From sequence record NC_100372.1: a stretch of DNA of 64,000 nucleotides. One strand, 5' to 3'. The notes beneath the pieces are model-generated. The model was not told the DNA's origin and made no database searches. It was given only the letters and a program-made list of their open reading frames with translations. The stretch's first letter is position 1. Each line of letters starts with the position of its first letter. A program made the position numbers and the translations under genes. Source of the DNA: a phage. Shown piece by piece: positions 37,930 through 51,597 of the stretch.

Positions 37930-37937
37930 TATTCCAC

Positions 37938-38072: not shown

Positions 38073-38074
38073 GG

Positions 38075-39215: not shown

Positions 39216-39566
39216 TTATTTTGCATTATTTCCTATATTGCCGCTACGGTACCAGCGTTTACGGTGAAAATGGTAATAATCGCCATCGGCATTGAACATC
39301 AGATGGTTTTCAATAACCAGCTTACGAAGGTGGGCCGGATCTTGTTCCATTCTTGCCAGACTCTGGCGGCTGTTACGTAAGCGGATAAATTCCATATTCA
39401 GGCCGTTGATTGCAGCATGGATGTCAAAGTAACCACCTTTGAGACGTTCACGCATGGCGTTAATCTCAACACAATATACAGATTTCTCACAAATCAAGGT
39501 ATTAGCCAGGGCGCGGACCTGGGCAAGGGGGTTAAGCTCATTAAGGTAATATAGTTTTACTTTCAT
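39216..39566 (-). CDS. Hypothetical protein
   Basis: ORF. Confidence 0.5.
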   Translation of the reverse strand: MKVKLYYLNELNPLAQVRALANTLICEKSVYCVEINAMRERLKGGYFDIHAAINGLNMEFIRLRNSRQSLARMEQDPAHLRKLVIENHLMFNADGDYYHFHRKRWYRSGNIGNNAK

Positions 39567-39583
39567 AAAATAACCTGCTGAAA

Positions 39584-39883
39584 CTAGTTTGAGAAAACAT
39601 CGTTCACAATAGCGATCACAATGCCGTTCACCTTGTCACGGTCAACAATGCACAAATCGCCATAGATCATGTGGTAGTCTGGATGATCTTTCACGGAATA
39701 ATCAATGAGTGTTTTCTTATCGTCCAGCTTACTAACTTCCATTCTCATAACGATATGAGAATCATCAAAGGCATTATTCCGAAAAGTCATAACCTGACCG
39801 CCAGGGCACCCGGTGATCTCTACTTCCACGCCGTCTACGATCTGACCATCAAAGAAATAAAGATTATTAGCCTGGATAAACAT
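39584..39883 (-). CDS. Hypothetical protein
   Basis: Start moved to the ATG 8 nt after AAGGAG. Confidence 0.5.
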   Translation of the reverse strand: MFIQANNLYFFDGQIVDGVEVEITGCPGGQVMTFRNNAFDDSHIVMRMEVSKLDDKKTLIDYSVKDHPDYHMIYGDLCIVDRDKVNGIVIAIVNDVFSN

Positions 39884-39974
39884 GATCATTACTCCTTTTT
39901 GCACTGATTATTTTAACAGGGTTTAAATTTACTTTATTGATGGCCCTGGAGTCAAGGCCATCTAAAAATAAATT

Positions 39975-40175
39975 TTACAGGCCTACAATCTCTTTAATTC
40001 GTTTTACTGCTGCCTCAGCGCCTTGAGGGTAAAAATTATGGTAACCAATCACGCGGGTAATACTGATCGCCACTTGATGATCTTCATAATCGCCTTTGAA
40101 GATTTCTTGACCGTCAATCAGCACGGCAATTTTTTCTTCTTTTTTGAAGTTAATAACGCGGATATTGTTGCTCAT
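39975..40175 (-). CDS. Hypothetical protein
   Basis: Start at MSNNIRV after AAAGGAGAAACAAA RBS. Confidence 0.45.
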   Translation of the reverse strand: MSNNIRVINFKKEEKIAVLIDGQEIFKGDYEDHQVAISITRVIGYHNFYPQGAEAAVKRIKEIVGL

Positions 40176-40289
40176 TTTGTTTCTCCTTTCTGGTCTTTGT
40201 GTTGGTGGGGATTGCTCCCCGTTGATTGTTATTATCCATATTTCCGGACCGGATTGCAACACCCTAGAAGAAAAATTTTTGAAAAAGTT

Positions 40290-40312
40290 AAGCCCCCAGG
40301 GATTGGGGGCCG
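40290..40312 (-). terminator. Intrinsic terminator candidate (GCCCCCA-loop-TGGGGGC, U-rich tail on minus strand)
   Basis: Hairpin downstream of the small gene 40316..40435. Confidence 0.4.
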
Positions 40313-40315
40313 TTA

Positions 40316-40435
40316 TCAGTTACTTACAGCGATAAAGTACATCCCTACGCCTAACAATATTTCAAGGGCGATGATCTCAAGCCATACCGTAACACGGCGC
40401 ACCTTATCGGTGCGGGGCTTATCCTTGGGTGTCAT
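40316..40435 (-). CDS. Small membrane peptide (39 aa)
   Basis: AGGAGG...GGGGGAG RBS; hydrophobic C-terminal half. Confidence 0.35.
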   Translation of the reverse strand: MTPKDKPRTDKVRRVTVWLEIIALEILLGVGMYFIAVSN

Positions 40436-40601
40436 CGTCTCCCCCTTTCCTCCTGTTAGCAGTGACGTGGTTTGCAATGGCCCCCAGGAGTATTATCACC
40501 ACGCACATTACAAGAAAAATTATCTCTGTCGTTGTTCGATCCATTGTTATAAAATTCCTTAAGATCAGGCCTGAAAATAAAGCTTTCGTTATTGAATCCA
40601 T
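40419..40601 (-). CDS. Small membrane protein
   Basis: ORF with TM helix. Confidence 0.35.
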   Translation of the reverse strand: MDSITKALFSGLILRNFITMDRTTTEIIFLVMCVVIILLGAIANHVTANRRKGGDDDTQG

Positions 40602-40654
40602 CCCGCCAGGCGGCTGGCTTCAAATCTTCACTAAATGGATTAATTAACGTGGTA

Positions 40655-41026
40655 TTATTTAAACGGCTGGCCCACATATTTTCTATTCCTCTCAAATAAG
40701 CGATCCGCCTCAGTTAAACAAATCTCATGGGCGTGATCTCTGGTTTTAGCTTCATCGAAAACCTGTTGTGCAAGGCTGCAACGTAGGGAGACTGGAAGAT
40801 CACTATAATAGGCGTTGACAAACGTTTGAGCGTCGTACAGGTCTGAAAATACTTTACCCTTTCTATTATTCCCCTTGTCAACAATTGCAAGGATAACCAA
40901 TACAATAGTTGCAACCACTCCCAGGAAGATAGATATAATAAACCATAAAAAGGCGGATCTACCCATCTTGCCAGCGATCCAGGCGTTAAACAAGGCAACT
41001 AATATAGCCAAAATAATAAATTCCAT
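40655..41026 (-). CDS. Membrane protein (two TM helices)
   Basis: Start at MEFIIL after AAAGAGG RBS. Confidence 0.5.
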   Translation of the reverse strand: MEFIILAILVALFNAWIAGKMGRSAFLWFIISIFLGVVATIVLVILAIVDKGNNRKGKVFSDLYDAQTFVNAYYSDLPVSLRCSLAQQVFDEAKTRDHAHEICLTEADRLFERNRKYVGQPFK

Positions 41027-41093
41027 TCTATGTACCTCTTTTACAGTTCTGATTAACAATAAGGCGGCAAATATGCCGCCGCCTGTTACCTGA

Positions 41094-41474
41094 TTAAAAA
41101 TTATCGCCGTAAATCTTTCCGCTTTCTACCCATACCACCACGCGGGGCATACTATCCCACACATCTTGTTTTAGATTGAGCGAGTGCAGTTCTTCGGTGG
41201 TGCTCATACCGGGCACGGGCTGATTGTATACTGCAAAACGACCGCCTGCATAATCATAGGCCAGGGTTAAATCACACTGGATCATCTTTTTGATCATGGC
41301 ATTAAGCATAGCGTTAGCCGCGTACTGATCTCGTTTTAATGGCAACTCTTTAATCAGTTTGCGATAGTTTTCGATATGGTCGCACACTGTTTCACGCGGA
41401 AGATCTTTCATATCTTCACGGAATGTAACCAGGTTAAACATAACGGTGTCAATAGCTTTAGTAGTGTTTTTCAT
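41094..41474 (-). CDS. Hypothetical protein
   Basis: Start at MKNTTK after AAGAGGAAAAC RBS. Confidence 0.5.
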   Translation of the reverse strand: MKNTTKAIDTVMFNLVTFREDMKDLPRETVCDHIENYRKLIKELPLKRDQYAANAMLNAMIKKMIQCDLTLAYDYAGGRFAVYNQPVPGMSTTEELHSLNLKQDVWDSMPRVVVWVESGKIYGDNF

Positions 41475-41565
41475 GATGTTTTCCTCTTTGTTTTGTGGGA
41501 GGCAAGTCATCTCGCCCCCTTGAGTTTTAAATATAGCAGGTTTTTAGATTATTGCAACACTTTAT

Positions 41566-42189
41566 TTATGAAAAACTCATCTCACCATATTCATCCACAT
41601 CAAACCGCCAATCATTGGCTTCAATAAGGCCGATCAGGTTTTCGGTAGTAAACTGTTCAAGATAGGCCTCCTCCAGGTCTACATAAACCTTGCGGGATAG
41701 CTCCCGTACCGTCTCGGTGATCAGCTCTTCCAGGTCTTCCACTTTGTTTTCTTGTTTGGCGGTCAGATCTAGCCAGGTGGTATCAATGTATCCGCTTACA
41801 GTGTTTTCATGGCTGTAATGGCTGTACTTGTCGCGTTCAACACTGGCTGATAACTCGCCATCGTGCATTGTGCCGAACAAGTGACGAATTGATCGGAACT
41901 TGGTCAGGGCCTTTACTTTACGCAAGAATTTTTCTAAATCCACGTTTTCAGCACTGATTGACGCGCCGTCACCCTGGCACCAAAAGCCGGACCAATGTAC
42001 TTCGGTATCTTCAAGGCCGTACTCTGGAAAAACTTGTTCTTTATAATATTCAATTACACTTTCTGCGAAAAAATCCTCTCCGCTGTGTTCTTCTCTTTCG
42101 CGGACCATTTCAATAGCTTTTTCTTTTTGTTCGTCGGTCAGCACGTCGAAAGATAAATTGCAACCTGTGGTAATGTTAACGGTGGTCAT
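41566..42189 (-). CDS. Hypothetical acidic protein (207 aa)
   Basis: Glu/Asp-rich, HWSGFWCQGDGASI segment; no confident family assignment. Confidence 0.55.
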   Translation of the reverse strand: MTTVNITTGCNLSFDVLTDEQKEKAIEMVREREEHSGEDFFAESVIEYYKEQVFPEYGLEDTEVHWSGFWCQGDGASISAENVDLEKFLRKVKALTKFRSIRHLFGTMHDGELSASVERDKYSHYSHENTVSGYIDTTWLDLTAKQENKVEDLEELITETVRELSRKVYVDLEEAYLEQFTTENLIGLIEANDWRFDVDEYGEMSFS

Positions 42190-42263
42190 GATATTTTCTC
42201 CTGTTTTCTTTATTAGTGGCGGGAAGTTTTCCCGCCTGTGTGTTTAATTATACTTATTGAGAT

Positions 42264-42524
42264 TTACTTGTCAACACTATTTTTTAAATTATTGTGGCGT
42301 AAAATGTTCAAGATCTCTTCAACGTCATCAACACGGCGGTAATTTTTAAACGCTACCAATTGCCCCATGATTTTAATCACTGGGCGGCCTTGCCAGTGCC
42401 CCTGGAGAAAGCGCGCCTTGACTTTATCGGTGGAGCTATCACGCCACCAAATGGCCTTGTTGTTGCAGTAGTAAAAATTATTCAGGACAACATCAACCTT
42501 ATCAAAATTTTTTAATTTACGCAT
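42264..42524 (-). CDS. Hypothetical protein
   Basis: ORF with upstream promoter. Confidence 0.5.
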   Translation of the reverse strand: MRKLKNFDKVDVVLNNFYYCNNKAIWWRDSSTDKVKARFLQGHWQGRPVIKIMGQLVAFKNYRRVDDVEEILNILRHNNLKNSVDK

Positions 42525-42556
42525 GGCGTTTACTCCTTTCTCTCTTTGATGTGGTT

Positions 42557-42584
42557 AGTATAGCTAACCTGTTTAAGATGTCAA
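42557..42584 (-). promoter_or_regulatory. Sigma70-like promoter on minus strand (TTGACA-16-TATACT)
   Basis: Reverse complement of 42557-42584. Confidence 0.45.
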
Positions 42585-42730
42585 GCTTTAAATAAAATCA
42601 CTGTCAATAATATTTTTAACGCCATAAAACGGCCCTGGGCGATGTTTTCAGGTTAAGAAAGGCGATTGCATAGGTGGGGGCCTTTTCGGCGCTTACAGGG
42701 CCAACCAGGGGCGCTATTCGTAGGATAGAA

Positions 42731-42757
42731 ATAAAAAGCCCCGCACAATGGCGGGGC
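42731..42757 (-). terminator. Intrinsic terminator (GCCCCGC-loop-GCGGGGC with TTTTTATTT on minus strand)
   Basis: Strong hairpin plus U-run immediately after gene 42766..42963. Confidence 0.65.
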
Positions 42758-42765
42758 GTTGGTTG

Positions 42766-42963
42766 TTATTTGTCTTTATGGCGGTATCGTTCTGCCTGTC
42801 GTTCACGTTCCAAAAGTAGGCCAGGCAATTTACGATCATAATGATTTCGCCAGATCTTTCCAAATCTTTTTGGCTTATTTAGTTTATTGTTACGCTGGCG
42901 GCGTTCCGGCAGCTCTTCGGAATCATGAGATCGCTTTACAATCTTCTCAAAATTAATCTTCAT
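42766..42963 (-). CDS. Hypothetical basic protein
   Basis: Start at MKINFEK after AGGGGG RBS. Confidence 0.45.
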   Translation of the reverse strand: MKINFEKIVKRSHDSEELPERRQRNNKLNKPKRFGKIWRNHYDRKLPGLLLERERQAERYRHKDK

Positions 42964-43306
42964 ATATTCCCCCCTTGCTAACTTCAATATTTGCCTGAAT
43001 AGCCCGGATACGGCGCTTTATAACTTCCTGGTCTGTGTGATCGTATCCCCAAAAGTCTACAATTTTTGCGCCCCCCGCCTCCAGGCGGTATAGTGTTTCC
43101 TGCATCTTGTAAGCCGGGACCGGTCGCGGTGTTACTTGGTCACCTTCTTTATTTTTATACTTTATAATATAATCTTCGTTATCGTTGAATGCCCAAAATG
43201 GATATTTTGCAAGGGCGTTGCTTTCTTTTTCGTTCTTAGATTGGATCTTGTTTACAATTAAAGCCGTAGCAATAGCGCCGATAATAAAACTTGCACCGCT
43301 GATCAT
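42953..43306 (-). CDS. Membrane-anchored protein
   Basis: Start at MISGAS after GAAAGGAGAA RBS; N-terminal TM helix. Confidence 0.5.
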   Translation of the reverse strand: MISGASFIIGAIATALIVNKIQSKNEKESNALAKYPFWAFNDNEDYIIKYKNKEGDQVTPRPVPAYKMQETLYRLEAGGAKIVDFWGYDHTDQEVIKRRIRAIQANIEVSKGGIYED

Positions 43307-43381
43307 GTTACTTTCTCCTTTCATGGTGTTAATAAATTATCTTTATAGATGGCCCTGCAGCCAGGACCACCGAAAAAATAA

Positions 43382-43627
43382 CTATTTCACAATGCCCACA
43401 AAACAGATCCCGCCTTCCCCGACGTAGGCAATATCGGTCACTTTGTAGTCGGTTAAGATCTGTTTATTCAGATCATTAATAAAATCGGTCATTGCGTTGG
43501 TGTAGTTGTCTTCCATGTCTAGGGAATAATCCCAGGTGTAAACCTTTTTACGTCCGAAGCCTTTAACAACAACACGGGCACCTTTGGTGTTGGTTGGTGC
43601 ATAGTATTTAGTGATTAGTGCTGCCAT
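43382..43627 (-). CDS. Hypothetical protein
   Basis: ORF. Confidence 0.5.
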   Translation of the reverse strand: MAALITKYYAPTNTKGARVVVKGFGRKKVYTWDYSLDMEDNYTNAMTDFINDLNKQILTDYKVTDIAYVGEGGICFVGIVK

Positions 43628-43716
43628 GGTTTTAACTCCTCTGTATTAGTTCAGTGTTAACAGTGTAAAGTTTACTTTATTGATGGCCCTGGAGTCAAGG
43701 CCATCTAAAAATAAAC

Positions 43717-44121
43717 TTAGTAAGTTTTCAGTACTTTACCGTCCAACCTGTCAAGCTGGATCTCGATAGCTGCAGAAAACCTATTGTACACCACGTCGCC
43801 CATGGAATCCAACCAGTCTATGACGTTATACACCTGCTCTTTGTTCTTGCAGGTCCGGATCCGTTTCATGATGTAAGCCGGATCAATATTGGTACTTTCG
43901 TTGGTGTTCCCCTGTACCTGATTTGCCGTATTAGTTACATCTTTAATGGCCTTTACCACCACCTGGAAGGGCTTTAAGGTGCCTTTTGCGTTCATCTCAC
44001 GCGCTTTTGCGGCGCGGTTGTTATATGTTACACAACGGCGGCAAATGTTCACCAAATGCATGTCAATAATTTTTTCATCGTTTGCCAGTTCGTTCATGAT
44101 GCGGCGTACGTTCTTATTCAT
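43717..44121 (-). CDS. Hypothetical protein
   Basis: ORF. Confidence 0.5.
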   Translation of the reverse strand: MNKNVRRIMNELANDEKIIDMHLVNICRRCVTYNNRAAKAREMNAKGTLKPFQVVVKAIKDVTNTANQVQGNTNESTNIDPAYIMKRIRTCKNKEQVYNVIDWLDSMGDVVYNRFSAAIEIQLDRLDGKVLKTY

Positions 44122-44140
44122 GATCTTTTTCCTTTGTGTT

Positions 44141-44165
44141 GGCGGGAAACATTCCCGCCTTTTGT
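44141..44165 (+). other. Hairpin GGCGGGAA-ACAT-TTCCCGCC with T-run on the plus strand only
   Basis: Sits in the 5-prime leader of a minus-strand gene; near-identical hairpin at about 42203-42222. Confidence 0.4.
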
Positions 44166-44203
44166 GACTAGTTTACTTGAATTTTGCAGCGTGTCAACAA
44201 TTT

Positions 44204-44602
44204 TTATTCGTGGGCGCATGTTACAATGTGCTTTTTATAGCCCAGGTGGTTAGCAAGTGCCGACAAAAACTCTTCTTCATAGATCCAGCCGTTGGCAGTG
44301 ATCCCCATAGCATTTAATGCGCTCTCAAGTGCTGCATTAGCTTTATCGTAACCGTGACCGCTCGCCTTCCCGCCAGTATAACCGTACTTATTGTTCTTGT
44401 TGTCGTGAATCCAAAAAACGCAGTATTGAGTGTTCCCGCTGGCGGCGGCATAATACCGGATCTCAGCTACTTCGTGCAAATTATTGTCATCGTCCAGGCC
44501 CACCAGATTATAAGCCTTGTAAAATCCACGATCACGGCGGCAGTTCTTGACATCAGAAAAAGAAAAGTCCGCATTATCAAAATTAAAGGTAGTGGTTTTC
44601 AT
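44204..44602 (-). CDS. Hypothetical protein
   Basis: ORF. Confidence 0.5.
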   Translation of the reverse strand: MKTTTFNFDNADFSFSDVKNCRRDRGFYKAYNLVGLDDDNNLHEVAEIRYYAAASGNTQYCVFWIHDNKNNKYGYTGGKASGHGYDKANAALESALNAMGITANGWIYEEEFLSALANHLGYKKHIVTCAHE

Positions 44603-44666
44603 GATTTTATCCTCTTAGTGTCTTTTGTGCTTTTAGTGTATTTGGTGTCGGACTGTATGTCAATAC

Positions 44667-44864
44667 TTATTTTTTATTAAACCAGTGGTTGATCTGGCCT
44701 TTTGTCAGGGCGCAACGATTAAGCTGTTGCCGGGTATAGCTCTGACCGCGACGGAATTTATAAAGGCCTTGCCCGTTGTTGATGGTTACGTCCACCTGGC
44801 AAATCATTTGATCGGTGACGGCCTGGCGAGTGTTGCGACGTACTTTAATTCCGTAGGCGTTCAT
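44667..44864 (-). CDS. Hypothetical basic protein
   Basis: ORF. Confidence 0.45.
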   Translation of the reverse strand: MNAYGIKVRRNTRQAVTDQMICQVDVTINNGQGLYKFRRGQSYTRQQLNRCALTKGQINHWFNKK

Positions 44865-44947
44865 GATTTTTATCCTCTCTGTTAATTAGTGTGGTGTTGT
44901 TCACCTTGCGAGGATAAGAATAACAGAACTATCCGAGCTGTCAACCA

Positions 44948-45121
44948 TTAGTTAGAATTATTTTTTGGGCAGAATTCTCCAGCCGCCGCCCCTGCCAGGT
45001 TAACCATCATTTTTTCGTACTCTTCTTTATGTTCCAACGCTCCCGCCATAGCCTTTTCAACCAGGGCGATAGCCTCAGCGTCATTAATCGCTACATTTCC
45101 AGGGATCCTATTACCTTTCAT
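44948..45121 (-). CDS. Small protein (57 aa), below the ORF-track size cutoff
   Basis: Hand-translated MKGNRIPGNVAINDAEAIALVEKAMAGALEHKEEYEKMMVNLAGAAAGEFCPKNNSN with GAGGAGG RBS. Confidence 0.4.
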   Translation of the reverse strand: MKGNRIPGNVAINDAEAIALVEKAMAGALEHKEEYEKMMVNLAGAAAGEFCPKNNSN

Positions 45122-45327
45122 TTTTGTACCTCCTCTTCAATTGTTACCTGCCCTGTAGCATAGGCCTACCAGGTTTGCAAGCTTTCACTCTCTCCTACCT
45201 GGTCAGTCAGGTCCTGCCAGGCTGGCCCCGCCAGGTTGCAGCGGTTGGTGTATTATGTTAGAAAAAATTTTTGAAGAAGTGTTGACAGCGGCCCCGCCAG
45301 GTGGCACAATATACCTATCGAAAGGAC

Positions 45328-45398
45328 GGCAGGCACCGGTGACGGGGGAGACAACCACCGGGGATGGGCGCTGCATAAAATGAGAACGGTTATCATTA
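45328..45398 (+). repeat. Conserved module copy 1: GC-rich element (GGCAGGCACC..GGGAGACAACCACCGGGG) followed by GAGAACGGTTATCATT
   Basis: Read directly; a second copy lies 135 bp downstream and a third element in reverse orientation at 37633. Confidence 0.6.
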
Positions 45399-45460
45399 TC
45401 ATTTAAAAATTTATGCAAAAAATCCTTGCTTTCTTTGTCCTGTGTGATACTATAATAACA

Positions 45461-45533
45461 AGCCGGGGCAACAGGGGCCGGGAGACAATCACCGGGGGTG
45501 CCCGTTATTCTGCAAACGAGAATGATTATCATT
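45461..45533 (+). repeat. Conserved module copy 2: GGGAGACAATCACCGGGGGTGCC followed by GAGAATGATTATCATT
   Basis: 21-bp core identical to the reverse complement of 37641-37661. Confidence 0.6.
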
Positions 45534-45663
45534 CAAAATTCTAAATGAGAACTTTTCGCATTTCATAAATTTAGTTAGCATGCTAATTACCTACCGTGAC
45601 AATTCTATATAAAATAATACCTCCTTAAATATTTCCATATACAAATTTTAAAAATCCATTTCC

Positions 45664-45830
45664 GAAAACGAAAAATCGATTTCGTCCCCAAAAATTTCAG
45701 GTCGAGCTCCGGAACGATTTCCAGAAAATCTGATTCAGAAAACGAAAAACAGATCGAGTACTAAGAAATTTATCGAGAAAAATTTTCAGAAAATTCAATC
45801 TTTGAAACGAAAAACAGATCGAGTACTGAG
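45664..45830. repeat. Three degenerate tandem repeats (about 70 bp) with core GAAAACGAAAAACAGATCGAGTACT
   Basis: Cores at about 45664, 45738, 45804. Confidence 0.55.
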
Positions 45831-46138
45831 AGAGATGTATCAAAACCTGCTGAGAATAATGGGTTTATTGTTATAAAGGGTCAAAGGTAAGCTGGGAAAG
45901 TTCCGGTAGAAGGGTGAGAGTATGTGCGGAAAATCTGGAATAGTAACTTAAAGTACGGTGCGAACGATAGAATGAGCAGCACATCTTATCGCGCCTGTCT
46001 TGAAAAATCCATTTTAGTTTTCGATCCATTTTCTGATTTTCTAAGAATTTTAAAATATCCGGCTAGGTAAAATATCAAAAGGAGGAAATCCATTTTAGAA
46101 ATCCTCCTTATACTTGATGTGCCAGGGATTTTCAAGTA

Positions 46139-46468
46139 TCAACTGTCTTTGTTTTTAGGCTTGTGCATACGTAGAGGTATGGTCTTTATAACATTCCATC
46201 TGCCCAACCCCTCCCAGTTCCAATTGTGAGCGTGATACCCAGTTATGCATGCACTGCTGGCGTGATCATAAGCATAAGAGAACGCTATGCGAACCAGGTG
46301 GGGCCAGTCCCTCCACGGCTGTGGACCGTAAGCCTTTCTCCAACACCGACACAAACTAATTGTCTCAAGAATAGGTAGAATAACAAATCCATATACCGCC
46401 ACCAAAATGGTAAGAGCAATGATTGTCAGGAATACATACCCTGCAGTTGAAATAATGATCTCTGTCAT
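46139..46468 (-). CDS. Membrane protein
   Basis: N-terminal TM helices. Confidence 0.5.
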   Translation of the reverse strand: MTEIIISTAGYVFLTIIALTILVAVYGFVILPILETISLCRCWRKAYGPQPWRDWPHLVRIAFSYAYDHASSACITGYHAHNWNWEGLGRWNVIKTIPLRMHKPKNKDS

Positions 46469-46668
46469 TTGTCATCCCCTTTCTTACGGATATAGATGTG
46501 AGAGCCTGCTTGTACATAAATTTCCCGACCATCTTCTGCAAAGATGTGGAATACACGGTCGCCTTCGTATTCAATACGGGATATCTTCATAACGGTCTTC
46601 CCACCCGGAATGCGGATCTCATCACCCACAGCAATGTTCCATGCAGATTTAAGCTTAAACATCTGCAC
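46465..46668 (-). CDS. Hypothetical protein
   Basis: Coupled ORF. Confidence 0.45.
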   Translation of the reverse strand: MQMFKLKSAWNIAVGDEIRIPGGKTVMKISRIEYEGDRVFHIFAEDGREIYVQAGSHIYIRKKGDDK

Positions 46669-46900
46669 CCCCCTTTGGGAGCTCTAACTCTGGCATAGCC
46701 ATATACGCCACGACAGGGTTGTAATCAAAGTAGAAATGACCGTTAATTATCCCAGTTTTGTGGGCATAGTCACCAGATCCTGCAAGAACAATCTCGCAAA
46801 CTCCGAAATCCACCTCGCCATTCTCATCTGCCATGGCTACAATATACTTTCCTAGAGGCATGTTTTTAACGCCGTCTACAAATGTCCACCCTTTGTTCAT
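46655..46900 (-). CDS. Hypothetical protein
   Basis: ORF. Confidence 0.5.
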   Translation of the reverse strand: MNKGWTFVDGVKNMPLGKYIVAMADENGEVDFGVCEIVLAGSGDYAHKTGIINGHFYFDYNPVVAYMAMPELELPKGGADV

Positions 46901-46920
46901 ACTTTATCTCCTGCACTTTC

Positions 46921-47253
46921 TTAAGGTAACCAGTAAACAATTTCGCCTTTCAGTTCCATGTCGTTACCGACATAGATTTTCCAGCCATCCATTTTAGCCA
47001 CTGCAGGAGTGAAGCCCGTAGAACCACTAACCTCTTTCCAAGTCCCGTAGTCAGGTTGCCAGATATAGAATCCACCTCCCTTGTCCCATGCTCCATATAC
47101 CACATCGAGCAGGTTGCCCATTGCAACAATAGTAGGCCGTGGGAATAATACATCTACAGATGCGCCACAATTTCGGGTAGATTTTAAATTACAATCCCAA
47201 AAGATGTCTGCCAGTGTGGCGGCGATAGCTTTACGTCTTTCTAATGTTACCAT
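46921..47253 (-). CDS. Hypothetical protein
   Basis: ORF. Confidence 0.5.
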   Translation of the reverse strand: MVTLERRKAIAATLADIFWDCNLKSTRNCGASVDVLFPRPTIVAMGNLLDVVYGAWDKGGGFYIWQPDYGTWKEVSGSTGFTPAVAKMDGWKIYVGNDMELKGEIVYWLP

Positions 47254-47263
47254 GGCACGATAC

Positions 47264-47455
47264 TCACTTGTTGTTAAGAAGTTCTAAAACTTTCTGTTTT
47301 ACTTTATCAAGGTCTGTTGATTCAAAAATTGTGCGATATCCCCAACTTTGCCCATAGGAATAACTGCAATCCCCGTAACACCATTGCTCAACTTGATAGT
47401 ATTCAAGGAATGGGTGCTGTCTGACTATGATACCGTCTCGATTAAAAATTACCAT
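47264..47455 (-). CDS. Hypothetical protein
   Basis: ORF. Confidence 0.45.
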   Translation of the reverse strand: MVIFNRDGIIVRQHPFLEYYQVEQWCYGDCSYSYGQSWGYRTIFESTDLDKVKQKVLELLNNK

Positions 47456-47518
47456 AATTTATCCCTCTCTGCTAGTCTATGTTTGTATTATATACTGCAG
47501 TTTTCAGATGTCAACCTT

Positions 47519-47713
47519 TTACAGGTTACTCCAGTATAATCGGCATTTACACTTCGGGCAATGAGGTTCTTTTATGTAATAACCATCAGTCTTTGGAACA
47601 CTTTTTGGTGCAGTTTTAAGATTGTACCGAGTAAAGCACCGGAAGCAGGTTACCTCTCCTACCTGTTGATCGTTTATCCACTCACCAGAGTAAAGCTCTT
47701 TCTTGTTTCTCAT
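47519..47713 (-). CDS. Small zinc-ribbon protein
   Basis: CFRCF...CPKCKC; start at MRNKK after GGGGAGAG RBS. Confidence 0.45.
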   Translation of the reverse strand: MRNKKELYSGEWINDQQVGEVTCFRCFTRYNLKTAPKSVPKTDGYYIKEPHCPKCKCRLYWSNL

Positions 47714-47738
47714 AATTCTCTCCCCAATCCTCTGCAAT

Positions 47739-47910
47739 CTTATACCAGAATCTCCAGCCAGAAAGCACACGGGAACACTTTGAGGATTGAATCTTTACTA
47801 GGCTCGGAAGTTCTTTTTCCGTAGGGCAGGTAGAAATACCCTCCTGCAGATTCAAACATGGCTCCTTCTGTTGTATCTATCACAGCTAGAATTAAGATTT
47901 TAGTCTCCAT
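47739..47910 (-). CDS. Small protein (56 aa), below the ORF-track cutoff
   Basis: Hand-translated METKILILAVIDTTEGAMFESAGGYFYLPYGKRTSEPSKDSILKVFPCAFWLEILV with AGGGGAG RBS. Confidence 0.35.
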
Positions 47911-47964
47911 AGTGCTCCCCTGTCTTAATCGTTGTGGTGACTATACCACCTTAAAATATAGCTG

Positions 47965-48423
47965 TCAACACTCTTTGTACTCCACCACGATAATATCTAT
48001 ATCAAAAGTGGCAAGGTTAATAATGTCCTCTACATGTTCCCACTTCAAACCGCCTATGCCGCACCCGATCTTAGGGATGTAGAATGGTAAAATCGACCCC
48101 TCAAATACTTCATTGACTCGCTCAAAGCCTTTCAGTATTGAGAAATATTCAGCATTAGGCCCTGGGTAGAACTGAGTATACAGATTTATTCCGTAGACAA
48201 TACCTCTCGGAGATAAGTGCTCCCAGCGGGAGAACGCGCCCAGTTTACTTAGGCAACCGTGCATAGTCATTTTATCAGCTTCCAATGCTTGAGGGAACTC
48301 ACGGGCAATCTGTTTTGCTACACCCTTACCCATTGTGTGGAAGCAGTTACAACCGTGGATCAGGTGACCATCACCGCTCTTAAAAAGGGAGATTAAATCT
48401 CCCTCTACAGTATCAATAATCAC
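47965..48423 (-). CDS. Macro-domain protein (ADP-ribose binding/hydrolase-like)
   Basis: HGCNCFHTMGKGVAKQI resembles the macro-domain glycine-rich ADP-ribose pocket; C-terminal IPKIGCGIGGL resembles the second conserved loop; start placed at GTG after GAGGAG RBS. Confidence 0.5.
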   Translation of the reverse strand: MIIDTVEGDLISLFKSGDGHLIHGCNCFHTMGKGVAKQIAREFPQALEADKMTMHGCLSKLGAFSRWEHLSPRGIVYGINLYTQFYPGPNAEYFSILKGFERVNEVFEGSILPFYIPKIGCGIGGLKWEHVEDIINLATFDIDIIVVEYKEC

Positions 48424-48838
48424 GATATTCCAGCTCCTCTTCCACAATTTCAAAAAACTCAGTCCAGCACTGTGGCATATTGGAGTTACCGAAGTGGCTT
48501 TCATAGTAAAGGTTTTTACCGCTCGGAAGATAGAAATCTGTTACCTCATAAAATCCACAATCGTCGCACTCTCCCTCTTCAAACTTGGCCTTAACCTTAA
48601 TGCCGAGGAAGGTGAAAAGTTTATGGATATCTTCGGTCTCGAACTCCCAATTAATGTTGTTTTCCGCATCGGTGTAAAACTGGATCAGTAGGCCATCATC
48701 CATTTTTCCAAAATATTCTGTGAAGTAGCTTCCTTCCCAGAAGTCTTTGTGACAAATAATATCCATGCGCTTGCCCATAATAAAGGTGTGGGCGTTTCGT
48801 GCATCGTCACGAATCAGTTTTGGCATTTCATAAATCAT
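48413..48838 (-). CDS. Hypothetical acidic protein
   Basis: ORF. Confidence 0.5.
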   Translation of the reverse strand: MIYEMPKLIRDDARNAHTFIMGKRMDIICHKDFWEGSYFTEYFGKMDDGLLIQFYTDAENNINWEFETEDIHKLFTFLGIKVKAKFEEGECDDCGFYEVTDFYLPSGKNLYYESHFGNSNMPQCWTEFFEIVEEELEYRDY

Positions 48839-48903
48839 CGTAGTTCTCCAGGATCAATAGGTGGTGCTACAGGAAGATCATAAAACATGGCGATCACATT
48901 CTC

Positions 48904-49101
48904 TTACGCAGGAATTGCTTCAAACAGGCCGTTATCGATACCATCCTTCAAGTAAAGATTATACTCTATGTCAGTATCTGTGTAAAGGGCAGCATCTAGC
49001 ATTCTATCTGTGAGTCCATCCATTGGGTGGAGAAACCACCACCCACGCCAGTCAAAGTAACAACCTGGTGCATCTTCTCTCACACGGATTCGATAAATCA
49101 T
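48904..49101 (-). CDS. Hypothetical protein
   Basis: AGGAGG RBS. Confidence 0.45.
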   Translation of the reverse strand: MIYRIRVREDAPGCYFDWRGWWFLHPMDGLTDRMLDAALYTDTDIEYNLYLKDGIDNGLFEAIPA

Positions 49102-49170
49102 GGGCAGTGGCCTCCTGTTAGTTACACATCCCAGTTTTCTTCGTTCATCACATCCTCCAGCTCAACAAGG

Positions 49171-49202
49171 TTATAATTGCACACCTTACAACCCGTGTCA
49201 AC
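49171..49202 (-). promoter_or_regulatory. Sigma70-like promoter on minus strand (TTGACA-17-AATTAT)
   Basis: Perfect -35, 4/6 -10. Confidence 0.35.
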
Positions 49203-49614
49203 AGAAAACTTCAACAAATTCTTCCACAGTTTTAATGTCATGGGAAAAAGGTTTGCGGCTATAACGGGCAATAGCACTGTCAACCACCGCCCGGTACTCC
49301 AAATCTTCAGAATATTTCATGAAGCATTGCAACGTCTCTGGACAGATAGCCAGATAGCTCCACCACCCCTCTTCAGATTGGTAGTCAAATCCCATACTCT
49401 CTAGCCACGAAGCGTATACACCTGCACCTTCCAGCCAGTGAGTATTTTCATCAAGAAACTTGTTCACAGTCATGTGAGCTTCTAAGCATTTATCCAGCTC
49501 TTTTCCGTTAACCAGCCACGCACTGACAGTGGCGCATCCAAGATCCACAGATTGAGCTGATAGATTGTATTGGTCATAGTTCTCAGGTTTAACAATGATA
49601 TCTTCTAATGTCAT
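49198..49614 (-). CDS. Hypothetical protein
   Basis: ORF. Confidence 0.5.
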   Translation of the reverse strand: MTLEDIIVKPENYDQYNLSAQSVDLGCATVSAWLVNGKELDKCLEAHMTVNKFLDENTHWLEGAGVYASWLESMGFDYQSEEGWWSYLAICPETLQCFMKYSEDLEYRAVVDSAIARYSRKPFSHDIKTVEEFVEVFC

Positions 49615-49631
49615 TTTTCAGTCCTCTATAT

Positions 49632-49660
49632 ACAAAAATGCCCCACCCTTTCGGGTAGGG
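49632..49660 (-). terminator. Intrinsic terminator with GAAA tetraloop (GCCCUACCC-GAAA-GGGUGGGGC + U-run)
   Basis: 9-bp stem with one G-U pair, followed on the minus strand by ATTTTT; downstream of the SSB-like gene. Confidence 0.65.
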
Positions 49661-49676
49661 CTATGTTAACTAGATG

Positions 49677-50903
49677 TTAAAAAGGTATGTCATCATCAAA
49701 GGCGTACTGTGCCGGATTCTGATCCATCGGGTCGTCTTCCGCATCATCTACAGGAGGAGCGTCTACAGTGTTTTGCTGTGGGGCGGCTTCCTGTTTGGCA
49801 GCTTGAGGCTCTTGATGGTCAGTGGCTCCAGCACCGTTCTTGATCCAATCATACAACGGTTCAGCAAGATTAGTCAAGACATCTTTTGCCTCTGCAGTAA
49901 TTGCTACTGCAAAATCATCAACTTTCGTTTTCTTGTCAATACGGCGACAAGCGTTCAATACCGCATTACCAACACTGGCACCTACTTCATCTTCAGTTCG
50001 GTTAGTGGCTTGAGCGTACTCTTTCTTAAGCTCGATGGTGACCACGTGCAGTGTTTTAGCCACATCTAAAGGGCTGTCAATCTTAAACCCGCGATCCAGG
50101 ATGATCTGCAATGCATTGATACTGTGCCCTGTCTCTACACCGATGGGGTCGTAAGAGGATTTACGCTTACCACCAGAACCTTGTGTACCGTTCTCTGCTT
50201 TAGGCGGGTAGGCCTTGAAGCCGCTGATAATATTCCCGGTGTCTTTGTCAACAATAGCTGCAACACGACCACCTACCACCAGGTCTTTAAGCTGCTCATC
50301 AGAGACAACCATAGCACCTTCACCAATCTTGTGATCATTGACAGTAACCACGTTGCCAACAATCTGAGTCACATCGCCATAGATGCGTAAAACGTCCTGA
50401 TTGGCATTCTGCTGAGGTTTCTGCTTCTGGCCTTGTGATTGTGCACCTTGTTGCTGTTTTTGCTGCTGAGTCGCTGCTGGAGCCTCTCCTGCACCCAGCT
50501 TGACCATCTTAGCCAGGGAGCCTTTGTAATAGGTCTTACCGTTATGCTCGTTTGCCTTCAAAGGGATATTTACGATCCATCCTGGCGTTACAGTTTCCCA
50601 CTTGTCATCAATTTTAACAGAGACAGAGTCTTGATGACCCGGTTTAAGCAGCTTATCACCCATACTGATCCAAACTTCTTCACCACCTTGAAGCAGGTTA
50701 TCAGAGGAATCCAGTTCAGAAATCAGTAAAGAGATGGTGTGGCTGGATTCAATTTTCTTACCTTGCCACACAGTGGTTTTAATACCTGTTGTAGGATCAG
50801 CACCTTTGATAGGCTTGATGCTGACACGTTTAATCATGCCGTGAGCCAGTAAAACAGTTTCACGCGGATTCATCGGGTTAGCGAATTGTTGAATAACGCT
50901 CAT
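49677..50903 (-). CDS. Single-stranded DNA-binding protein-like (long form)
   Basis: C-terminal acidic tail ending DDDIPF, as in bacterial SSB; Gln/Gly-rich linker. Confidence 0.55.
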   Translation of the reverse strand: MSVIQQFANPMNPRETVLLAHGMIKRVSIKPIKGADPTTGIKTTVWQGKKIESSHTISLLISELDSSDNLLQGGEEVWISMGDKLLKPGHQDSVSVKIDDKWETVTPGWIVNIPLKANEHNGKTYYKGSLAKMVKLGAGEAPAATQQQKQQQGAQSQGQKQKPQQNANQDVLRIYGDVTQIVGNVVTVNDHKIGEGAMVVSDEQLKDLVVGGRVAAIVDKDTGNIISGFKAYPPKAENGTQGSGGKRKSSYDPIGVETGHSINALQIILDRGFKIDSPLDVAKTLHVVTIELKKEYAQATNRTEDEVGASVGNAVLNACRRIDKKTKVDDFAVAITAEAKDVLTNLAEPLYDWIKNGAGATDHQEPQAAKQEAAPQQNTVDAPPVDDAEDDPMDQNPAQYAFDDDIPF

Positions 50904-51379
50904 TATTTATCTCCTTGTTCTTCGTTAGTGTTTGCCGTGTGTGCAAACCCTGCTTGAATTAATTTGTCCTGAACTTGAGCCAACAGGCCCATTGCAAAAC
51001 TTGTGGTCCCAGAGAGGGCCATCAGCATATCTCGTTGTTGAGCTACCCAACCTAAGGCATAGTCCAAACGACGATATTTTTCTTCTTCACGCAGAGCCTG
51101 GAATAATTGTTCAGCCTCTGGCTGTTGTGTAAGCTCCTGAAGTCTTCCCATGAAAGAAGAAAGCACTAGCAGAAGAGACACTTGATCTTTACTTAACCCT
51201 AAGAAAAATTCTTGAGGTTGTTCTTGCTCGTTCATCGCAACCGACGCTTGATCGTTCATTTGTTCCATTATGGAATCTCCGATTTTATTTGAACAACATA
51301 GAAGGAGACACCATTTTAGCATCTCCTTCTGCAAATTACAACAGGTATTTGTTAGCCAATTACTTCGAAAGTACCCCAA
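50903..51379 (-). CDS. Hypothetical protein
   Basis: Coupled ORF. Confidence 0.5.
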   Translation of the reverse strand: MGYFRSNWLTNTCCNLQKEMLKWCLLLCCSNKIGDSIMEQMNDQASVAMNEQEQPQEFFLGLSKDQVSLLLVLSSFMGRLQELTQQPEAEQLFQALREEEKYRRLDYALGWVAQQRDMLMALSGTTSFAMGLLAQVQDKLIQAGFAHTANTNEEQGDK

Positions 51380-51597
51380 CTCCCGTTCAGCAGGCAGGTG
51401 ATCGGATCACCATCATCGTCAATTATTTCAAAGTTTTCAACATCCAGAATATGGTCATCGAACACAATGCTCTTATCGCCACCACCAGAAATAACAGCGT
51501 ATTCCTTACCTTGTGTTAGGTTCTGGCAACCTTTGCCGCCGAAACCAACTTCAACACAACGTACTTTCTGTCCTGCGCGAGCAACTACTCCAGCCAT
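51352..51597 (-). CDS. Hypothetical protein
   Basis: ORF. Confidence 0.45.
   Translation of the reverse strand: MAGVVARAGQKVRCVEVGFGGKGCQNLTQGKEYAVISGGGDKSIVFDDHILDVENFEIIDDDGDPITCLLNGSWGTFEVIG

What the first reader, a model, noticed from the sequence alone, without database searches (positions are those of the whole stretch)
47965..48423. Macro-domain protein in the early gene cluster
Macro domains bind or hydrolyse ADP-ribose derivatives. In a phage early region this could reverse ADP-ribosylation-based defence or degrade a nucleotide-derived immune signal.
Basis: partly seen in the sequence, partly recalled or inferred. Interest (0 to 1): 0.55.

Follow-up and report, generated by a model that had tools for sequence, protein, structure and literature searches.

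The report
Phage macrodomain that likely counters DarT
This is a real, conserved 152-residue macrodomain gene of a V5-like E. coli phage; it is a clear homologue of phage T4 Tk.4/AdfM, which T4 needs to escape the DNA-ADP-ribosylating DarTG2 defence, so it is a plausible anti-defence enzyme of a known kind and not something new.

Summary
Window 47965-48423 (minus strand, GTG start, 152 aa) encodes a full-length Macro domain: Pfam PF01661 scores 32 bits against a cut-off of 22, and the AlphaFold2 model has pLDDT 96.4. The nearest solved folds are TARG1, DarG, Poa1p, BT1257 and SCO6735. The window is a Vequintavirus (rV5-like E. coli myovirus), and close relatives already annotate this gene as 'macro domain protein', 'Poa1p-like' or 'phosphatase'.

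The protein is 41% identical over its whole length (E 7e-43) to T4 Tk.4. A 2025 preprint named Tk.4 AdfM because its deletion sensitises T4 to DarTG2. The protein is 70% identical to the gene in the tk.4 slot of a Krischvirus.

Both glycine loops are conserved. The residue at the DarG/TARG1 catalytic lysine position is an invariant glutamine (Q84, motif NLYTQ), as in SCO6735, which removes ADP-ribose from thymidine in ssDNA. There is no DarT-binding domain.

Best reading (about 0.6): a catalytic, stand-alone eraser of DarT2-made ADP-ribosyl-thymidine on phage DNA, probably expressed early. Enzyme activity, substrate and timing are inferred, not shown, and no Vequintavirus has been tested.

Main rival: clearing soluble ADP-ribose derivatives from the phage's own sirtuin/RNA-ligase module.

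Verdict: a new member of a known kind, of modest interest.

The parts
47965..48423 (-). Macrodomain gene: 152 codons plus TGA, GTG start. Homologue of T4 Tk.4/AdfM.
   Evidence: ORF and translation. Pfam Macro 32 bits against cut-off 22. PHROG 335 at 3e-61. AF2 pLDDT 96.4. 41% identity, E 7e-43, to T4 Tk.4. dN/dS 0.07-0.23.
48316..48357 (-). Loop 1, H23-G-C-N26-C-F-H-T-M-G32-K-G34-V-A36. It holds the ADP-ribose-binding glycine loop and N26, the equivalent of DarG N22 and SCO6735 N27.
   Evidence: Translation verified. N26, G34 and A36 are invariant, and H23, G24, C27, M31 and G32 are conserved in at least 90% of 72 homologues. Aligned to DarG 'VNCVGVMGKGIA' and SCO6735 'HVCNDLGGWGKGFV'.
48172..48186 (-). 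Motif N80-L-Y-T-Q84. Q84 occupies the position of the catalytic lysine of DarG (K80) and TARG1 (K84), and equals Gln85 of SCO6735.
   Evidence: Translation verified. N80 and Q84 are invariant in 72 homologues. Alignments to DarG 'NFPTK', TARG1 'LITK' and SCO6735 'NMIGQ'. SCO6735 Q85A is inactive (PMC9411070).
48049..48075 (-). Loop 2, P117-K-I-G120-C-G122-I-G124-G125, the second glycine-rich diphosphate-binding loop. G124 sits where TARG1 has the catalytic Asp125.
   Evidence: Translation verified. P117 and G120 are invariant, and I119, G122 and G125 are conserved in at least 90%. Alignment to TARG1 'PRIGCGLDR'.
48434..48439 (-). Shine-Dalgarno-like GAGGAG, 10 nt upstream of the GTG start and inside the 3' end of the upstream gene.
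   Evidence: Read directly from the sequence.
48413..48838 (-). Upstream 141-aa gene of unknown function. Its stop overlaps the macrodomain start by 11 nt, so the two are probably co-transcribed and translationally coupled.
   Evidence: ORF list. No Pfam, NCBIfam or PADLOC hit. PHROG 8157 'unknown function'. Not similar to T4 Vs. Same arrangement in relatives.
48958..48986 (-). Sigma-70-like promoter match (TTTACA-17-TATAAT, 11 of 12) upstream of the 141-aa gene and the macrodomain gene. Candidate promoter of the pair.
   Evidence: Consensus scan. Sequence verified. This is a pattern match only, not a mapped promoter.
49640..49661 (-). Intrinsic-terminator-like hairpin (9 pairs, 7 G-C) plus a T run after the 408-aa gene. 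It bounds the transcription unit on its upstream side.
   Evidence: Scan. A terminator is annotated at the same place in phage HdK5.

Best explanation
The gene encodes a stand-alone macrodomain of the ALC1-like class (TARG1, DarG, SCO6735). It most likely works as an anti-DarT factor of the T4 Tk.4/AdfM type. It is probably made early from host-type promoters. The protein binds the ADP-ribose that the host DarT2 toxin attaches to thymidines in single-stranded phage DNA and hydrolyses the ribose-base bond. This releases free ADP-ribose and restores a replicable template. It acts only as an eraser: it lacks the C-terminal DarT-binding domain of DarG, so it cannot sequester the toxin. Its chemistry is probably that of SCO6735, where Gln84 and Asn26 position the distal ribose and a water molecule, and not the lysine chemistry of DarG or TARG1. 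Shown here: the ORF, the Macro fold, conserved binding loops, an invariant Asn/Gln pair, purifying selection, and full-length homology to T4 Tk.4. Taken from the literature: the T4 tk.4 knockout is DarTG2-sensitive, and SCO6735 cleaves thymidine-linked ADP-ribose. Inferred: that this protein is catalytically active, that ADP-ribosyl-thymidine DNA is its substrate, and that it is expressed early.
For: Macro domain by HMM and fold. The closest solved relatives by profile are SCO6735 (5e3b, 1.6e-18), M. tuberculosis DarG (5m3i, 2.2e-18), BT1257 and TARG1. The only NCBIfam hit is antitoxin_DarG and the only PADLOC hit is DarG, and both cover only the macrodomain part. T4 Tk.4 is 41% identical over 152 residues, E 7e-43, with the same motifs HGCNCFHTMG and NLYTQF.PGPN. 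tk.4 was the single significant hit of a T4 transposon library on DarTG2, and its clean knockout is DarTG2-sensitive. A Krischvirus carries a 70%-identical gene in the tk.4 slot, in the order regB - vs.1 - vs - macro. N26 and Q84 are invariant in 72 homologues. In SCO6735 the equivalent residues N27 and Q85 are needed for cleavage of thymidine-linked ADP-ribose on ssDNA, and that enzyme rescues E. coli from DarT (PMC9411070). A DarG2-like macrodomain of PhiKZ removes DarT2 marks from DNA, so phage macrodomains do act this way (PMC13309987). The host is E. coli, in which DarTG2 is a known defence (PMC11825919). dN/dS is 0.07-0.23. Sigma-70-like promoters are enriched around the gene.
Against: No Vequintavirus has been tested on DarTG2. 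The Bas54 transposon study did not report this gene. A literature search found no DarTG data for this subfamily beyond a NADAR protein in Bas60-62. Identity to T4 Tk.4 is only 41%, and macrodomain substrate range cannot be read from sequence. The T4 preprint shows genetics only, not enzymology. The catalytic lysine of DarG is absent. The lysine-rich mobile loop that SCO6735 uses for DNA binding is also absent, and K33 is not conserved in the family. The protein is acidic (pI 5.45), unlike DarG, SCO6735 and TARG1 (pI 8.6-9.7), although the DNA-active PhiKZ AdfM is acidic too. Bacterial members of the same clade are stand-alone genes in unrelated neighbourhoods with no recurrent partner, so the clade as a whole is not tied to DarT. 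Relatives of this phage carry a sirtuin/RNA-ligase module that could supply a different substrate.
Confidence: 0.6

Rival explanations
1. It is a metabolic clean-up enzyme for soluble ADP-ribose derivatives made by the phage itself. V5-like phages carry a sirtuin next to a T4-like RNA ligase, a MazG pyrophosphatase and a phosphoesterase. This module is predicted to repair cleaved tRNA in a KptA-like, NAD-dependent way. The macrodomain would then dephosphorylate ADP-ribose-1''-phosphate (Poa1p-like), or deacylate O-acyl-ADP-ribose, produced by that module.
For: The relative NHEP1 (97.5% nt identity over the query region) encodes 'Sir2 NAD-dependent deacetylase', 'RNA ligase', 'nucleotide pyrophosphohydrolase' and 'phosphoesterase' just left of the window. 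Iyer et al. 2022 describe exactly this neighbourhood in Escherichia phage V5 and predict ADPr>P as a product (PMC9503650). Yeast Poa1p is among the best sequence and fold matches. H23 and T30 appear to align to Poa1p residues H23 and S30, which were mutated in PDB entries 6lfs and 6lft (the numbering offset is my inference). Many records annotate the family as 'phosphatase' or 'Poa1p-like'.
Against: The macrodomain gene lies about 48 kb from that module, in a different, oppositely oriented gene block. Iyer et al. note that these sirtuins are not coupled to a Macro gene. In the one stretch of T4 read here, tk.4 sits among tk, vs and regB with no sirtuin or RNA ligase beside it, and it has a DarTG2 phenotype. 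The 'phosphatase' name is inherited annotation, not a test. The two roles are not mutually exclusive.
Confidence: 0.17
2. It counters a different ADP-ribose-based host defence. It could remove ADP-ribose from proteins or RNA modified by other defence ADP-ribosyltransferases. It could also destroy ADP-ribose-derived second messengers or toxins, such as Thoeris cyclic ADPR isomers or ADPr-1''P from RES toxins.
For: Macrodomains act on many 1''- and 2''-linked ADP-ribose conjugates. Iyer et al. argue from phyletic patterns that phage Macro domains mainly target soluble derivatives. SCO6735 also de-modifies proteins. The family occurs in 2802 of 50,697 phage records across many host genera, which is wider than one would expect for a single defence target.
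Against: There is no specific evidence for any of these substrates. T4, which carries Tk.4, is still strongly restricted by the mRNA ADP-ribosyltransferase system CmdTAC (PMC11618068). DarTG2 is the only defence for which a member of this clade has a phenotype. The only defence-library and NCBIfam matches are to DarG.
Confidence: 0.15
3. It is a non-catalytic ADP-ribose binder (reader or sponge), or a decaying passenger gene, because the catalytic lysine of DarG/TARG1 is missing.
For: Q84 replaces the lysine, and G124 replaces the TARG1 aspartate. A few truncated homologues of 92-121 aa turned up in the homologue search, one of them on a 135.5-kb contig of V5-like size (P0017, P0019, P0037).
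Against: The glutamine is invariant across 72 homologues, not a sporadic loss. SCO6735 has the same Gln and is highly active, and Q85A abolishes its activity. T4 Tk.4 has the same Gln and has a phenotype. dN/dS of 0.07-0.23 indicates selection on the whole protein. All binding-loop residues are intact.
Confidence: 0.04

Closest known systems
Phage T4 Tk.4 = AdfM (anti-DarT factor Macrodomain; bioRxiv 10.1101/2025.11.20.689424)
   Same: Stand-alone protein of about 150 aa. 41% identity over the full length, E 7e-43. Same start position. Same motifs HGCNCFHTMG.G.A, NLYTQF.PGPN and P.IG.GIG, including the Gln at the catalytic-Lys position. It lies among small genes on the same strand as replication and nucleotide-metabolism genes. 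A Krischvirus gene in the tk.4 slot is 70% identical to the window protein.
   Different: Different phage family (Straboviridae against Vequintavirinae). Different neighbours: the upstream gene here is not a vs homologue. The DarTG2 phenotype is shown only for T4, and the enzymology of Tk.4 itself is still inferred.
Streptomyces coelicolor SCO6735 and Bacteroides BT1257 (Gln-type ALC1-like macrodomains; PDB 5e3b, 2fg1/2afc)
   Same: SCO6735 is the best profile hit in the PDB (1.6e-18). Gln at the catalytic-Lys position (Q84 = Gln85) and the supporting Asn (N26 = Asn27). Stand-alone, with no DarT partner. In a rough NJ tree this pair is sister to the phage/bacterial HGCNC clade.
   Different: Only about 26% identity. 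SCO6735 has a longer, lysine-bearing mobile loop (K89, K93) and Val25, and it is basic (pI 9.7). The window protein has a shorter loop without lysines, Gly24, and pI 5.45.
DarG antitoxin macrodomain (M. tuberculosis 5m3i, T. aquaticus 5m31/5m3e; NCBIfam NF048014)
   Same: Same fold (Foldseek probability 1.00, TM about 0.75). The Asn of the 'VNC' motif and both glycine loops are shared. It is the only named family hit in NCBIfam and PADLOC.
   Different: Catalytic Lys80 is replaced by Gln. There is no C-terminal DarT-binding domain (152 aa against about 340). There is no adjacent darT. The score of 44 bits is far below the equivalog cut-off of 250.
PhiKZ gp104 = chimallivirus AdfM (Cell Rep 2026, PMC13309987)
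   Same: A phage-encoded stand-alone macrodomain that removes DarT2 ADP-ribose from DNA. The proposed job is the same, the protein is acidic, and the Asn is conserved.
   Different: Only 22-26% identity. It is the Lys type ('FPTK', K78) and groups with DarG, not with the T4/V5 clade. It is imported into the phage nucleus, which V5-like phages are not known to form.
Human TARG1/OARD1 (PDB 4j5r)
   Same: Top Foldseek hit (E 1.7e-10, TM 0.78-0.85), of similar size and topology.
   Different: The Lys84/Asp125 catalytic dyad is absent; the equivalent residues here are Q84 and G124.
Yeast Poa1p (ADP-ribose-1''-phosphate phosphatase; PDB 6lfq-6lfu)
   Same: Significant sequence and fold match. The shared 'IHxCNC' motif includes the His. 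It is the source of the 'phosphatase' and 'Poa1p-like' labels in phage records.
   Different: About 22% identity, larger rmsd (4.3-4.8 A), and a longer protein with insertions. No activity on ADP-ribose-1''-phosphate has been reported for any phage member that I found.

Membership tests
Macro domain superfamily (Pfam PF01661) | Sequence score at or above the Pfam gathering threshold, over the whole domain | tested here: met
   32 bits against a cut-off of 22, E 1.3e-7, profile positions 1-118 of 118.
Macro domain superfamily (Pfam PF01661) | Three-layer alpha/beta/alpha macro fold | tested here: met
   AF2 model pLDDT 96.4, pTM 0.91. 176 PDB matches with E <= 0.001, and those listed were macrodomains or enzymes designed on a macrodomain scaffold. 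The top matches are TARG1, DarG and Poa1p.
Macro domain superfamily (Pfam PF01661) | Conserved glycine-rich ADP-ribose/diphosphate-binding loops | tested here: met
   The G32-x-G34 loop and the G120-x-G122-x-G-G125 loop are invariant or conserved in at least 90% of 72 homologues.
Macro domain superfamily (Pfam PF01661) | Binds or hydrolyses ADP-ribose derivatives | not testable with these tools
   Needs ITC or enzyme assays.
T4 Tk.4/AdfM-type anti-DarT2 macrodomain | Full-length homology to T4 Tk.4 with shared signature motifs | tested here: met
   41% identity, E 7e-43, residues 1-150 against 1-152. HGCNCFHTMG and NLYTQ are shared. It groups with Tk.4 in an NJ tree.
T4 Tk.4/AdfM-type anti-DarT2 macrodomain | Conserved genomic position (tk.4 slot next to vs) | tested here: not met
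   The upstream gene is unrelated to Vs, and the neighbours are V5-specific families of unknown function. The link is indirect: a Krischvirus gene in the tk.4 slot is 70% identical to the window protein.
T4 Tk.4/AdfM-type anti-DarT2 macrodomain | Required for phage growth on DarTG2-expressing hosts | not testable with these tools
   Shown only for T4. No data for Vequintavirinae.
DarG antitoxin (NCBIfam NF048014, type II TA) | Equivalog-level score and a two-domain architecture (macrodomain plus C-terminal DarT-binding domain) | tested here: not met
   44.1 bits against a cut-off of 250. Only profile positions 3-143 of 338 are matched, and the protein is 152 aa.
DarG antitoxin (NCBIfam NF048014, type II TA) | Catalytic Lys (T. 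aquaticus K80) after the conserved Thr | tested here: not met
   Q84 aligns to this Lys and is invariant in the family.
DarG antitoxin (NCBIfam NF048014, type II TA) | Encoded next to a darT toxin gene | tested here: not met
   Neighbouring genes have no Pfam hit, the upstream 141-aa gene has no PADLOC hit, and the PHROG matches of the neighbours are all 'unknown function'.
SCO6735-type (Gln-type ALC1-like) macrodomain hydrolase | Gln at the catalytic-Lys position, supported by the Asn of the first loop (SCO6735 Gln85 and Asn27) | tested here: met
   Q84 and N26 are aligned and invariant. The role of these residues is taken from PMC9411070.
SCO6735-type (Gln-type ALC1-like) macrodomain hydrolase | Extended lysine-bearing mobile loop (K89, K93) and Val25, reported as SCO6735-specific | tested here: not met
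   The loop after Q84 is about 5-6 residues shorter and has no Lys, and Gly24 replaces Val25.
TARG1/OARD1 | Lys84/Asp125 catalytic dyad | tested here: not met
   Q84 and G124 occupy the aligned positions.
Chimallivirus AdfM (PhiKZ gp104) | DarG2-like Lys-type active site (N23/K78) and close sequence relationship | tested here: not met
   22-26% identity. gp104 has 'FPTK', and it groups with DarG, apart from the window protein.
Poa1p-like ADP-ribose-1''-phosphate phosphatase | Phosphatase activity on ADP-ribose-1''-phosphate, with residues H23 and S30 studied by mutation | tested here: inconclusive
   His23 and Thr30 appear to align to the Poa1p residues (PDB titles; the numbering offset is inferred). 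Identity is only about 22%, and activity cannot be tested here.

The most novel reading that the evidence does not exclude
The T4 Tk.4 / V5 macrodomains may not be captured DarG antitoxin domains. They would form a separate, Gln-type 'HGCNC...N.YTQ' clade shared with stand-alone bacterial genes that have no DarT partner. On this reading, phages co-opted a general-purpose cellular de-ADP-ribosylase, which uses lysine-independent, SCO6735-like chemistry. In V5-like phages it may serve two roles: erasing DarT2 marks on DNA, and clearing ADP-ribose by-products of the phage's own sirtuin-based RNA-repair module. This would make it a broad-spectrum counter to NAD-based immunity and not a one-system antidote.
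Probability: 0.25. Interest if true: 0.45.

Novelty: new member of a known kind. Interest (0 to 1): 0.27.

Why it matters
If the protein is an AdfM-type enzyme, then V5-like phages are intrinsically protected against DarTG2. These phages are widely used and proposed for E. coli O157 biocontrol and for therapy. The protection would help to predict their host range on DarTG2-carrying strains. It would also extend the T4 finding to a family present in about 5% of sequenced phage genomes (2802 of 50,697 records). The small mechanistic point of interest is that the T4/V5 lineage carries Gln in place of the catalytic Lys of DarG and of PhiKZ AdfM. Two unrelated macrodomain lineages have therefore been recruited by phages for what looks like the same job. 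Beyond that, the finding is ordinary: macrodomains occur in about 41% of myoviruses (PMC9503650), and this gene is already labelled as one in GenBank.

Tried and rejected
1. The longer ORF from the ATG at 48504 (179 aa, used in the NHEP1 record). Rejected because the extension overlaps the upstream gene, and T4, Krischvirus and the other Vequintavirus records all start at the GTG-aligned position.

2. A functional partner in the overlapping upstream 141-aa gene. It has no Pfam, NCBIfam or PADLOC hit. Its PHROG is 'unknown function'. It is not a Vs homologue and not a DarG C-terminal domain.

3. A NADAR (AdfN) or ADP-ribosyltransferase partner in the window. Twenty of the larger unannotated ORFs were scanned against Pfam. 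None was NADAR or an ART; the only hits were NT5C, endonuclease VII, Clp protease and a weak methyltransferase match. Smaller ORFs were not scanned.

4. Origin from DarTG operons. 346 bacterial loci carry stand-alone homologues of about 150 aa. For 35 of them, 120 neighbouring ORFs matched 136 different Pfam families, and none recurred in more than 4. DarT was not among the 25 most frequent families. Only the top 25 were visible, so a rare DarT neighbour cannot be excluded.

5. Net charge as a test of DNA binding. It is uninformative, because the DNA-active PhiKZ AdfM is as acidic as the window protein.

6. tRNA genes and Rfam families in the window. None were found.

7. The mBio AdfB 'antitoxin mimic'. 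It is a 77-aa DarT binder, not a macrodomain, and is not relevant here.
Full report
**The object.** Window 47965-48423 holds a minus-strand ORF of 152 codons plus a TGA stop, starting with GTG at 48423. The mechanical ORF runs further up to an ATG at 48504. That extension lies inside the preceding gene (48413-48838), whose stop overlaps the GTG by 11 nt. T4 Tk.4 and a Krischvirus homologue both begin at the residue aligned to the GTG. Three Vequintavirus records annotate the same 459-nt CDS. A GAGGAG sits 10 nt upstream.

**The phage.** The 2.7 kb around the gene is 98% identical to Escherichia phage ECP2303, and it matches 118 phage records, most of them Escherichia phages. The records I opened are classified as Vequintavirus, the rV5-like myoviruses of about 136 kb. 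The relative NHEP1 covers the whole window. Using it as a guide, the left half of the window is a plus-strand block of replication and nucleotide-metabolism genes. The right half is a minus-strand block that runs from helicase, primase and DNA polymerase through dozens of small genes of unknown function. The macrodomain gene lies in that second block, about 6 kb downstream of the polymerase gene. All ten neighbours tested fall in PHROG families of unknown function, and the five of them that were also scanned against Pfam have no family there.

**Is it a macrodomain?** Yes.
- Pfam Macro scores 32 bits against a gathering score of 22, over the whole model.
- PHROG 335 matches at 3e-61.
- An AlphaFold2 model built on 72 homologues has pLDDT 96.4.
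- Foldseek against the PDB puts TARG1, T. aquaticus and M. tuberculosis DarG, yeast Poa1p, BT1257 and SCO6735 at the top, all with probability 1.00.
- A family profile against PDB sequences gives the same set at 1e-18 to 1e-14.

This places the protein in the ALC1-like class of macrodomains; the class name is used as in PMC9411070. Both glycine loops are conserved. The invariant residues are N26, G34, A36, N80, Q84, P117 and G120. dN/dS against three orthologues is 0.07-0.23.

**Active-site reading.** In DarG (K80) and TARG1 (K84) a lysine that follows a conserved Thr is catalytic. Here that position is Q84 (motif NLYTQ), and it is invariant in the family. The TARG1 aspartate (D125) is G124 here. 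SCO6735 and BT1257 also have Gln at this position. According to PMC9411070:
- SCO6735 removes ADP-ribose from thymidine in ssDNA more efficiently than DarG or TARG1.
- It rescues E. coli from DarT.
- It loses activity in Q85A and N27S mutants.

The window protein keeps both residues (Q84, N26). It lacks the longer lysine-bearing loop and the Val25 that the authors regard as SCO6735-specific. The missing lysine is therefore not a sign of inactivity. It is a lineage character that points to lysine-independent chemistry.

**Link to known phage biology.** tblastn finds homologues in 2802 of 50,697 phage records. These include T4-like phages, where the hit lies under 'tk.4: phosphatase' next to vs. 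I fetched the T4 locus: Tk.4 is 41% identical over its whole length, E 7e-43, with the same motifs. A 2025 preprint reports three things (10.1101/2025.11.20.689424):
- tk.4 was the single significant hit when a T4 transposon library was grown on DarTG2.
- A clean knockout is DarTG2-sensitive.
- The authors named the gene adfM and inferred, but did not show, enzymatic removal of ADP-ribose from DNA.

An earlier paper had noted that T4 lacking adfA and adfN is still DarTG2-resistant (PMC11825919). Krischvirus phage Whisky carries a gene 70% identical to the window protein in the syntenic regB - vs.1 - vs - macro position. This ties the V5 gene to the tk.4 lineage and indicates lateral exchange.

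A second, independently named AdfM is PhiKZ gp104. It has been shown biochemically to strip DarT2 marks from DNA (PMC13309987). It is only 22-26% identical, is of the Lys type, and groups with DarG.

The only NCBIfam and PADLOC hits of the window protein are to DarG. They are far below the equivalog cut-off and restricted to its macrodomain half. No DarT-binding domain is present in the protein or, as far as tested, in its neighbours.

**Where the clade comes from.** A scan of one genome per bacterial species found 346 loci encoding stand-alone proteins of about 150 aa with HGCNC...NAYTQ, for example in Desulfobacter, Ruegeria, Verrucomicrobia and Bacteroidota. For 35 of these loci, 120 neighbouring ORFs matched 136 different Pfam families. 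None recurred in more than four, and no DarT appeared among the 25 most frequent. In a rough neighbour-joining tree without support values:
- The window protein, T4 Tk.4, other phage members and these bacterial genes form one group.
- That group is sister to SCO6735/BT1257.
- It is separate from DarG/gp104 and from TARG1.

The T4/V5 lineage therefore looks like a co-opted stand-alone hydrolase, not a detached DarG domain. This is suggestive only.

**Expression.** Sigma-70-like promoter matches are enriched in the minus-strand small-gene block: 18 against 9.1 +/- 3.1, and 50 against 31.4 +/- 4.8. The high-scoring sites are mostly on the minus strand. One 11-of-12 match at 48986-48958 lies upstream of the 141-aa gene and the macrodomain gene. 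A terminator-like hairpin at 49661-49640 lies after the preceding 408-aa gene. This fits transcription by unmodified host polymerase, which means early expression, but these are pattern matches only.

**Rivals.**
1. *Clean-up of the phage's own ADP-ribose by-products.* The relative NHEP1 carries a sirtuin, a T4-like RNA ligase, a MazG-type pyrophosphatase and a phosphoesterase just left of the window. Iyer et al. 2022 predict that this V5 module performs NAD-dependent RNA-end repair and releases ADPr>P. A Poa1p-like macrodomain could clear the product. Against this, the genes are about 48 kb apart in different blocks. Those authors also note that no Macro gene is coupled to these sirtuins. The T4 homologue sits among tk, vs and regB, with no such module in the stretch read here, and it has a DarTG2 phenotype.
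2. *A different ADP-ribose-based defence or signal.* This is possible in principle but has no specific support. T4, which has Tk.4, is still restricted by the mRNA ADP-ribosyltransferase system CmdTAC.
3. *A non-catalytic binder.* This is unlikely given the invariant Gln, the SCO6735 precedent and purifying selection.

**Verdict.** The most likely function is an AdfM-type eraser of DarT2 ADP-ribosyl-thymidine (confidence about 0.6). Nothing has been tested in a Vequintavirus: the Bas54 transposon study did not report this gene, and a literature search found no DarTG2 data for this group. It is a new member of a known kind and of modest interest. The one feature worth a specialist's attention is the split between a Gln-type (T4/V5) and a Lys-type (PhiKZ) 'AdfM' lineage.

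Noticed in passing
window ~33000-36000 (densest at 35039-35650): This is the junction where the plus-strand gene block meets the minus-strand small-gene block. It has few convincing ORFs and an AT-rich stretch (GC 0.34-0.36 against about 0.42). It also has a cluster of short direct and inverted repeats, for example a perfect 18-nt inverted repeat at 35241-35258 / 35375-35392, a hairpin at 35253-35267 / 35278-35292, and TGACACAAT(G/A)TGACA repeated at 35039 and 35082. The HIDEN-SEQ preprint reports an intergenic region of about 2 kb between oppositely transcribed genes in the Vequintavirinae phage Bas54 that tolerates no transposon insertion. This may be the same locus, perhaps an origin or a regulatory region. 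No Rfam family or tRNA was found there.
   Followed up: partly
window 32500-51500, minus strand: Sigma-70-like promoter matches and intrinsic-terminator-like hairpins are both enriched across the block of small genes of unknown function. Promoters: 50 against 31.4 +/- 4.8, and 18 against 9.1 +/- 3.1. Terminators: 23 against 12.2 +/- 3.2. There are perfect 12-of-12 promoter matches at 47514-47487 and 42274-42247. This suggests many short host-polymerase transcription units.
   Followed up: partly
L007 (Enterobacteria phage Whisky, Krischvirus) 3001-3456: A T4-like Krischvirus carries, in the tk.4 slot, a macrodomain gene 70% identical to the Vequintavirus protein. That is much closer than T4's own Tk.4 (41%). 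It implies lateral exchange of this gene between two unrelated myovirus groups that infect enterobacteria.
   Followed up: partly
L010 (phage NHEP1) 14696-18549, just left of the window's start: A close relative encodes, side by side, a phosphoesterase, an ATPase, a T4-like RNA ligase, a Sir2-family protein and a nucleotide pyrophosphohydrolase. Iyer et al. 2022 predict this module to be a sirtuin-based, NAD-dependent RNA-repair system in phage V5. It lies outside the window, so it is not verified for this phage.
   Followed up: partly
window 48413-48838 (minus strand): A 141-aa protein of unknown function whose stop overlaps the macrodomain start by 11 nt. This arrangement is conserved in Vequintavirus relatives. 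It has no hit in Pfam, NCBIfam or PADLOC, and only a V5-specific PHROG. Whether it works with the macrodomain is unknown.
   Followed up: partly
window 49677-50903 (minus strand): A 408-aa protein with long low-complexity Gln/Ala/Pro-rich stretches and an acidic C-terminal tail ending in ...DDDIPF. It has no Pfam hit, and PHROG 4477 is 'unknown function'. The acidic tail is reminiscent of single-stranded-DNA-binding proteins; this is my recollection and was not tested.
   Followed up: no
search result: Sixteen records named 'Campylobacter phage' (15 with host Campylobacter jejuni) match this E. coli Vequintavirus region at 80% nucleotide identity or more. This is unexpected for such distant hosts and suggests mislabelled or contaminated records.
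   Followed up: no
window 9278-9871 (+), 5405-6010 (+), 20171-21220 (+): ORFs annotated as hypothetical or only generically in relatives have Pfam matches. These are a 5'-deoxynucleotidase (NT5C, 26.5 bits against a cut-off of 24.8), endonuclease VII (31.7 bits) and a Clp protease domain (48.2 bits).
   Followed up: no
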